Position numbers and translations under genes: made by a program
Notes under the pieces: model-generated
Told to the model about the DNA's origin: nothing
Seen by the model: only the letters and a program-made list of their open reading frames with translations
Database searches by the model: none
Assembly: GCF_044704955.1 (NCBI RefSeq)
Contig: NC_091996.1
Location: forward strand, 30,504,001-30,568,000
Length of the DNA stretch: 64,000 nucleotides
Direction: 5' to 3'
DNA from: Pristiophorus japonicus
Lineage: Eukaryota
Shown here: piece by piece, positions 20,501 to 20,991 of the stretch
How positions within the stretch are numbered: the first letter of the stretch is position 1
Layout: each line of letters begins with the position of its first letter

Positions 20501-20671
20501 CATAGAAACATAGAAAATAGGTGCAGGAGTAGGCCATTCAGCCCTTCGAGCCTGCACCACCATTCAATAAGATCATGGCTGATCATTCCCTCAGTACCCC
20601 TTTCCTGCTTTCTCTCCATACTCCTTGATCCCCTTAGCCATAAGGGCCATATCTAACTCCCTCTTGAATAT
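20501..20671 (-). mobile_element. CR1 (family A) 3' end fused to the H2B retrocopy
   Basis: ATATTCAAGAGGGAGTTAG..TTTCTATG lies directly downstream of the H2B 3' UTR on the same strand. Confidence 0.92.
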
Positions 20672-20991
20672 GTGGTTTGTTCTGTCAGGACAGCGTGGAG
20701 TTTTACTTGGAGCTGGTGTACTTGGTCACTGCCTTTGTCCCTTCTGACACGGTGTGCTTGGCCAGCTCCCCGGGCAGCAGCAGGCGCATGTCGGTCTGGA
20801 TCTCCCGGGAGCTGATAGTGCAGCGCTTGTTGTAATGGGCCAGGCGGGAAGCCTCACCCGCAATGCGCTCCAAAATATCATTCACAAACGAGTTCATGAT
20901 GCCCATGGCCTTGGAGGAGATGCCGGTGACGGGGTGAACCTGCTTCATCACTTTGTAGATGTAGATGGAGTAACTTTTCTTCCTCGACTTG
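20672..20991 (-). pseudogene. H2B: Histone H2B processed pseudogene, 5'-truncated (stop at 20703-20705, short 3' UTR)
   Basis: [82 protein letters not shown]-terminal tail absent; substitutions at conserved residues (E>K, D>V, F>L, S>C, AV>DM, A>T). Confidence 0.95.

What the first reader, a model, noticed from the sequence alone, without database searches (positions are those of the whole stretch)
20501..20991. Histone H2B-CR1 chimeric retrocopy, joined just before the stem-loop position
Seen: on the minus strand a 5'-truncated H2B CDS, its TAA and ~31 nt of 3' UTR (..CAGAACAAACCAC) run directly into the last ~170 nt of a CR1. There is no poly(A) and no histone stem-loop. Known: replication-dependent histone mRNAs end in a GGCTCTTTT.AGAGCC stem-loop, and CR1 RT recognises its own 3' tail stringently, so it is not expected to make ordinary processed pseudogenes. 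Inference: reverse transcription began on CR1 RNA and switched template to an H2B mRNA or decay intermediate, by analogy to U6-L1 chimeras. This would be a route to retrocopies of non-polyadenylated mRNA.
Basis: partly seen in the sequence, partly recalled or inferred. Interest (0 to 1): 0.72.

Follow-up and report, generated by a model that had tools for sequence, protein, structure and literature searches.

The report
Histone-headed CR1 retroposon family
This broken histone H2B copy ending in the tail of a CR1 jumping gene is one of nine scattered copies with exactly the same joint, most likely because one histone gene picked up that tail and its messenger RNA was then copied around the genome like a small mobile element, by an enzyme thought to copy only its own RNA.

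Summary
In detail: a 5'-truncated H2B CDS, its stop and 31 nt of UTR run into the last 172 nt of a CR1-type LINE, with no stem-loop and no poly(A). It is not a one-off. Nine loci on seven contigs share the junction to the base and have unrelated flanks. Four start at the inferred H2B transcription start and five are 5'-truncated at different points. For four sister copies, paralogous empty sites lack both parts. The copies share a rare H2B UTR variant and nearly one CR1 tail type, and none of 109 ordinary tails starts within 2 nt of the junction. Best reading: a small non-autonomous family spread by CR1 reverse transcriptase from one chimeric source transcript, likely an H2B gene with a CR1 fragment inserted in its 3' UTR. 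The source locus was not found. A founding template switch stays a live rival, because tailless H2B copies end at about the same place. It works like platypus snoRTE or promoter-driven 5' transduction, but with a protein-coding, non-polyadenylated head. The scan noted single mRNA-CR1 and H2B-SINE chimeras before on other DNA; three look-ups showed no such family.

The parts
20706..20990 (-). 5'-truncated histone H2B coding sequence (95 codons, open frame, several substitutions; N-terminus and start codon missing)
   Evidence: an intact paralog (L007) matches Pfam Histone PF00125
20703..20705 (-). H2B stop codon
20672..20702 (-). first 31 nt of the H2B 3' UTR, of a variant that no stem-loop-bearing gene in the assembly carries by exact match
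20671..20672 (-). H2B|CR1 junction, the same in all nine copies; base 20671 fits both sides (1-nt overlap)
20591..20671 (-). last 26 codons and stop of CR1-type ORF2
20520..20558 (-). CR1 3' hairpin, predicted recognition site of the reverse transcriptase
   Evidence: PMC8665684 passages
20501..20516 (-). two units of the terminal octamer TTTCTATG
20499..20500 (-). candidate 2-nt target duplication, right copy (unverified)
   Evidence: no empty site held for this locus
20992..20993 (-). candidate 2-nt target duplication, left copy, with one extra base at 20991 (unverified)

Best explanation
The window holds one of nine dead copies of an H2B-mRNA/CR1-tail unit with an identical junction, likely all pasted in by CR1 reverse transcriptase from one chimeric source transcript, which most likely came from an H2B gene that had received a short CR1 fragment in its 3' UTR just before the stem-loop. 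Shown: nine copies, one junction, unrelated flanks, variable 5' truncation, ends in the CR1 octamer, single-unit insertion at four sites, and full-length copies that start 33 nt below the TATA position and lack the promoter. Inferred steps: (1) a 172-nt 5'-truncated CR1 inserted into a promoter-bearing H2B gene of the large histone cluster; (2) the H2B promoter made an RNA that began at the normal start and carried the CR1 hairpin and octamer; (3) CR1 ORF2 protein bound the hairpin and primed at the octamer, so anything 3' of it was left behind; (4) copies lack the upstream promoter and are dead; (5) the source changed over time, or existed in more than one copy, and was later lost with its H2B variant through cluster turnover. 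I put a shared chimeric source at about 0.85 and this origin of the source at about 0.55-0.6.
For: Same junction in 9 of 9 copies, control 0; a BLAST-type search found the same nine among 40 scored of 1781 candidates. Flanks are not colinear. Four copies begin within about 3 nt of each other at the base 33 nt below the TATA box of intact genes and carry no sequence from further upstream, which points to the H2B promoter as driver. Empty sites: L032 (7 paralog pairs, 4-nt duplication), L037 (6 pairs, 3-4 nt target loss), L035 (1), L038 (1). UTR variant: 7 exact matches in the genome, 6 chimeras and one tailless copy. The N-terminal variant of the four full-length copies has 13 matches, none an intact gene. 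H2B site -382 is T in 4 of 4 chimeras and 0 of 7 other dispersed copies of that variant that cover it. Tail site 39 is G in 9 of 9 against 4 of the 21 most similar ordinary tails (Fisher p 5e-5). None of 109 ordinary tails in 824 kb starts within 2 nt of the junction. Both halves are about equally aged (H2B part 1.7-6.1%, tail 1.8-4.1% from the majority). L031 and L035 share three H2B changes, and an exact 28-mer over two of them matches only L035 in the genome, as expected of a sub-lineage. DNA-level insertion into an H2B 3' UTR does happen here: L088/L098 is a promoter-bearing H2B gene with a 4.5-kb LTR element at UTR +36 and the stem-loop right behind it.
Against: No source locus was found: none of the nine has a promoter, and no tail is followed by an exact stem-loop within 30 nt. 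The junction sits where tailless H2B copies tend to end (+25 to +33 in 6 of 13 by script, 10 of 13 by eye), and L044 ends at the same base; that coincidence fits an RNA-level origin better. The nine tails were not one clade against 20 background tails (p-AU 0.037). Part of this looks like parallel mutation (the two sites L032 shares with an ordinary copy co-occur at only 4 loci genome-wide), but L035 keeps a T that the other eight lack and an older state at -305, which is unexplained. T at -382 also stands in 9 of 26 promoter- or stem-loop-bearing loci. Transcription of a chimeric RNA was not shown. The empty site of the window copy itself was not seen.
Confidence: 0.57

Rival explanations
1. 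The founder was made by a template switch from CR1 RNA to an H2B mRNA end just before the stem-loop. The chimeric cDNA then recombined into a cluster gene, gained the H2B promoter and became the source of the family.
For: The junction falls in the zone where tailless H2B copies end; 1-nt overlap only. One-off H2B/LINE-tail chimeras exist in this genome: L045 (H2B 5' part plus an element ending in ATG repeats, within an 11-nt duplication) and L050 (H2B 5' part plus another CR1 3' end). Template-switch birth of a CR1-mobilised SINE is proposed for PittSINE (PMC5729268 passages).
Against: It needs a second, rare event to put the chimera behind an H2B promoter. A chimera transcribed from a chance outside promoter should give daughters with extra 5' sequence, and 0 of 4 full-length copies have any in common.
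Confidence: 0.22
2. There was no source gene: each copy arose on its own, by template switching or RNA ligation between a defined H2B mRNA end and a defined CR1 RNA position.
For: It explains the exact start at the H2B transcription start and the missing source without further steps. H2B ends cluster at this zone. Tails are not strictly one clade, and L031/L035 differ from the rest.
Against: No CR1-side hot spot: 0 of 109 ordinary tails start within 2 nt. Tailless H2B ends scatter over several bases while the nine junctions do not. Independent events should sample many of the 876 H2B ends, as the tailless copies do, yet the nine carry one rare UTR variant.
Confidence: 0.09
3. Two separate insertions at this locus (a tailless H2B copy, then a CR1 landing at its end), or DNA-level duplication of one such locus.
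For: Both tailless H2B copies and CR1 tails are common here.
Against: Nine identical junctions with unrelated flanks and different 5' ends; four empty sites lack both parts.
Confidence: 0.02

Closest known systems
Platypus snoRNA-RTE composite retroposon (Schmitz et al. 2008; seen only as described in a passage of PMC5322556; the paper itself is not held; the name snoRTE is recalled)
   Same: A cellular RNA head joined to a LINE 3' end in a master gene makes the transcript a template for repeated retroposition.
   Different: The head here is a protein-coding, non-polyadenylated mRNA, the tail is CR1, and there are 9 copies, not about 40,000. No master was found here.
Host-promoter-driven 5' transduction, e.g. 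RAP1GDS1-L1PA2 (10.1101/2025.02.02.635956, section 25 and passages read)
   Same: A host promoter drives an RNA ending in a LINE; several insertions with one junction and unrelated flanks result.
   Different: There the L1 is near full length, the joint is spliced and the source is known. Here a 172-nt non-coding CR1 remnant is joined without a splice donor in an intronless gene.
U6-L1, U6-L2 and U6-Mon-1 template-switch chimeras (PMC4476161, section 10 and passages read)
   Same: Cellular RNA 5', stringent-LINE tail 3', short or no target duplication.
   Different: Those are treated as separate switching events, and only one unresolved U6-CR1 case is reported. Here the junction, parent variant and tail type are shared, as in a family.
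Tailless histone retropseudogenes (51 in human; PMC5322556 passages)
   Same: Copies of non-polyadenylated histone mRNA. This genome holds at least 13 such H2B copies.
   Different: Those lack a LINE tail and are ascribed to relaxed L1; the nine copies end in the CR1 hairpin and octamer.
SINEU of crocodilians (PMC4494074 passages) and PittSINE (PMC5729268 passages)
   Same: Short retroposons with a cellular RNA head; SINEU heads come from Pol II genes whose promoter lies outside the copy; PittSINE has a CR1 tail.
   Different: Heads there are snRNA or tRNA; here it is a full H2B mRNA.

Membership tests
CR1-group LINE 3' end | 3' hairpin followed by an octamer microsatellite (PMC8665684 passages) | tested here: met
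   hairpin z -2.5; TTTCTATG units in 9 of 9 copies; the octamer differs from the avian one
CR1-group LINE 3' end | tail continuous with a reverse-transcriptase ORF in longer copies | tested here: met
   longer window copies carry the ORF2 end into the tail; RVT_1 E 5e-27 in the copy at 10274-11236, whose tail is 74% like this one; the piece 14964-15668 matched no Pfam family
CR1-group LINE 3' end | reverse transcriptase falls in the CR1 clade on a tree | not tested
   no reference set held; the CR1 label rests on the tail structure and on recall of the ORF2 C-terminus
Non-autonomous retroposon family with a master gene | several dispersed copies with one structure and unrelated flanks | tested here: met
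   9 copies on 7 contigs
Non-autonomous retroposon family with a master gene | insertion hallmarks: fixed 3' end, variable 5' truncation, insertion as one unit | tested here: met
   5 of 9 truncated at -319, -295, -108, -60, -28; empty sites for 4 of 9
Non-autonomous retroposon family with a master gene | shared derived sites and one clade | tested here: inconclusive
   shared UTR variant, -382 T and tail G39; tails alone are not one clade, p-AU 0.037; the H2B tree is unresolved
Non-autonomous retroposon family with a master gene | an identifiable, transcribed master locus | tested here: inconclusive
   none found in the assembly; loss or collapse in the cluster cannot be told apart from never having existed; RNA not tested
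SINE in the strict sense | head from a Pol III gene with an internal promoter | tested here: not met
   the head is H2B mRNA; the TATA box lies 33 nt upstream in genes and is absent from all nine copies
One-off template-switch chimera (U6-LINE type) | junction on the LINE side differs between events (expectation from recall) | tested here: not met
   identical in 9 of 9; 0 of 109 ordinary tails start there
Spliced 5' transduction | splice donor at the host side of the junction | tested here: not met
   intact H2B UTRs have no GT after the break point; the true parent UTR is not held
Classical processed pseudogene | poly(A) tail | tested here: not met
   0 of 9 copies

The most novel reading that the evidence does not exclude
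The junction was made again and again at the RNA level: a stem-loop-free H2B mRNA end was joined, base-precisely, to one defined position of CR1 RNA, so that a stringent LINE has a repeatable route to capture non-polyadenylated histone mRNA, and the genome keeps a fossil map of where histone mRNA is open just before the stem-loop.
Probability: 0.09. Interest if true: 0.85.

Novelty: new variant of a known kind. Interest (0 to 1): 0.6.

Why it matters
CR1's strict recognition of its own tail is the stated reason why CR1-dominated genomes have few retrocopies (PMC5470649 passages). Here a 172-nt CR1 remnant turned a protein-coding, non-polyadenylated mRNA into a repeatedly copied template: four full-length coding regions were spread, one still with an open frame (L035). 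It is a small, early-stage example of how a SINE-like family can start from a Pol II gene, and why it stalls: the copies leave the promoter behind. It also warns that single mRNA-CR1 chimeras should be checked for sisters before being called template switches. The clustering of H2B retrocopy ends before the stem-loop is a separate lead that can be tested against histone mRNA 3'-end data. No such family turned up in paper searches; most subscription journals and Repbase/Dfam are not covered.

Tried and rejected
Source locus: four searches (junction pattern, N-terminal variant, UTR variant, tail followed by stem-loop) found none. A parent gene with a 6-nt shorter UTR, which would put the joint 2 nt before the stem-loop with a 3-nt overlap: 3 matches at 2 mismatches, none fitting; rejected, and the letters in L048 that suggested it look like a target duplication. 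Cis-splicing into a CR1: no donor. Segmental duplication: flanks unrelated. A CR1 sub-subfamily for the L032 tail: only 4 loci genome-wide; rejected. Orthologous empty site: contigs of four public runs (the window's own species label and three others) were laid on the 3' flank, tail and UTR; they are fragmented by repeats, no listed piece spans the stretch, and the result says nothing either way. H2A chimeras: of 247 matches only the first 100 were listed, nearly all in clusters; one dispersed copy was fetched and has no tail; H3, H4 and H1 were not searched. Of 876 H2B-end matches only the first 100 were listed and 12 unseen ones fetched, so the census of dispersed copies is partial. The H2B tree of 36 sequences with more than 250 aligned bases did not resolve the chimeras. 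Folding of the whole UTR-plus-tail gave nothing beyond shuffles (z 1.04).

Full report
Observation. On the minus strand the window has an H2B coding piece from 20990 to 20706, a stop at 20705-20703, 31 nt of UTR, and then 172 nt of a LINE 3' end down to 20500. The tail holds the last 26 codons of ORF2, a hairpin (z -2.5) and two TTTCTATG units, the layout described for CR1 (PMC8665684, passages). The window lies in a 5.9-Gb genome. That it is a cartilaginous fish is my inference from recall of this tail and from earlier scan notes, not from a call. Intact H2B genes place the stem-loop 40 nt after the stop in 15 of 20 distinct sequences, so the joint is 8-9 nt before it.

It is a family. A DNA search gave four more loci covering both parts. 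A 33-nt junction pattern with up to 3 mismatches gave 9 matches on 7 contigs and 0 for the reversed control; a BLAST-type search across the junction returned the same nine among 40 scored of 1781 candidates. Flanks are not colinear between any two. Four copies (L032, L033, L035, L037) begin at the base that lies 33 nt below the TATA box in intact genes, which I take as the transcription start. Five are truncated at -319 (window), -295, -108, -60 and -28 from the junction. All end within one to three octamer units. None has a promoter or a stem-loop.

Inserted as one unit. Four copies landed in repeats, so other copies of those repeats show the empty site: L032 (7 pairs; 4-nt duplication), L037 (6 pairs; 3-4 nt lost, with overlap between octamer and target), L035 (1 pair) and L038 (1 pair). 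In each the flanks join with neither H2B nor CR1 between them. For the other five, the window copy included, no empty site was found; the window's 5' flank is unique but for an 85-nt local duplicate.

One source or many events. The UTR variant next to the junction has 7 exact matches: 6 chimeras and the tailless copy L044. The N-terminal variant of the full-length copies has 13 matches: 4 chimeras, 1 broken cluster gene and 8 other dispersed copies. Site -382 is T in 4 of 4 chimeras and 0 of 7 other dispersed copies covering it (6 C, 1 G; Fisher p 0.005 with the G row and one uncovered row left out), but T also stands in 9 of 26 gene-type loci. Tail site 39 is G in 9 of 9 chimeras and 4 of the 21 most similar ordinary tails (p 5e-5). 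Of 109 ordinary tails in 824 kb of window and sampled stretches, none starts within 2 nt of the junction; the nearest are at +3, -9, +10 and about -12. L031 and L035 share three H2B changes; an exact 28-mer over two of them matches only L035 in the genome, L031 differing by one neighbouring base. Both halves are similarly aged. Against this: the nine tails were not one clade among 29 tails (p-AU 0.037). The L032 signal looks like parallel mutation, since its two sites co-occur at only 4 loci genome-wide. L035 keeps a T missing in the other eight and an older state at -305; tail exchange with an ordinary CR1, or a second source copy, would explain it, but neither is shown. On balance one chimeric source lineage is far more likely (about 0.85) than nine separate events.

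How the source arose. Full-length copies start at the H2B start and share nothing upstream, so the source RNA was most likely made from an H2B promoter. The simplest source is an H2B gene hit in its 3' UTR by a truncated CR1. The target is large (876 matches to the H2B end), and such a hit is seen for another element: L088/L098 keeps its promoter, has a 4.5-kb LTR element at UTR +36 with a 3-nt duplication, and the rest of the UTR and the stem-loop follow the element. The CR1 source itself was not found, nor an intact gene of its H2B variant, which fits loss by cluster turnover but does not show it.

The case for an RNA-level founder. Thirteen dispersed, promoterless, non-chimeric H2B copies that reach the stop were examined (L041, L044, L046, L048, L051, L083-L087, L089-L091). 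Left out were L088 (promoter, LTR insertion) and L092-L094 (stem-loop region and downstream flank kept). None of the 13 has the stem-loop. By an ungapped script 6 of 13 end at +25 to +30; by eye, allowing small indels and other UTR types, 10 of 13 end at +25 to +33 (binomial p 5e-5 for 10 of 13, window chosen after the fact). L044 ends at the same base as the chimeras. In human cells, decay intermediates gather in the stem and from 15 nt after the stop (PMC4478355, passages), and UPF1 sits just before the stem-loop (PMC4604434, passages). A-rich internal priming would explain the zone as well (inference). One-off H2B/LINE-tail chimeras also exist: L045, inside an 11-nt duplication, and L050. 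So a founding template switch keeps about 0.22, at the cost of a second event to gain the promoter.

Comparison. It works like the platypus snoRNA-RTE composite (passage in PMC5322556; the original is not held) and like host-promoter 5' transduction (RAP1GDS1-L1PA2; section 25 read). It is not a strict SINE (no Pol III head), not a classical processed pseudogene (no poly(A)) and not a set of one-off U6-LINE-type chimeras (PMC4476161, section 10 read). CR1 stringency is cited from passages of PMC5470649 and PMC3747384 (stringent LINEs in general); Suh 2015 was seen only in reference lists. A 2026 preprint counts many retrocopies in cartilaginous fishes and ties non-mammalian retrocopies to CR1 or Tx1 content (10.64898/2026.06.26.734816, passages; 'histone' does not occur in it). 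PMC13343379, PMC4494074 and PMC5729268 were read as passages. No supplements were read. Paper searches showed no histone-mRNA/CR1 family. Earlier scan notes describe single chimeras (TIAL1-CR1 and EBP-RTE SINE in this genome; an H2B-SINE case and several mRNA-CR1 cases in others), which I did not check; a look-up by sequence found nothing.

Verdict. New variant of a known kind; interest 0.6. The source locus and any transcript remain unseen.

Noticed in passing
L088 / L098 (G000:C7:5982400-5992399): Promoter-bearing H2B gene with a 4.5-kb LTR element inserted at UTR +36, 3-nt duplication; UTR remainder and stem-loop follow the element, and an H2A end lies 1.3 kb further on.
   Followed up: yes
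L045 (G000:C7:141425948-141428981): H2B 5' part from the transcription start joined to an element ending in ATG repeats (RTE-type by recall), 655 nt in all, inside an 11-nt duplication: a likely one-off chimera.
   Followed up: partly
L050 (G000:C24:19584357-19587390): H2B 5' part joined in mid-CDS to the 3' end of a different CR1 family; no clear duplication.
   Followed up: partly
L041, L044, L046, L048, L051, L083-L087, L089-L091: Tailless H2B retrocopies; none keeps the stem-loop and most end 25-33 nt after the stop.
   Followed up: partly
L099 (G000:C21:82871100-82873500): Dispersed H2A copy ending about 15 nt after its stop, with no stem-loop and no tail.
   Followed up: partly
L011, L022, L049, L082: A-tailed elements inserted at the first codons of H2B genes; in L011 and L022 the element end holds a stretch like the U2 snRNA 5' end (recalled).
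   Followed up: no
L035 (G000:C3556:364447-367479): Full-length family member with an open H2B frame of normal length but several substitutions, and a tail that differs from the other eight.
   Followed up: partly
window 20137-20440: High-copy repeat in the 3' flank, deeply covered in the run of the window's own species label and nearly uncovered in three other organisms' runs: possibly a young, lineage-restricted element.
   Followed up: no
window 21036-21120 and 21909-21993: 85-nt local duplicate, 91% identical, found nowhere else in the genome.
   Followed up: partly
window 7838-8077: CR1 3' end with an internal tandem duplication of about 75 nt.
   Followed up: no
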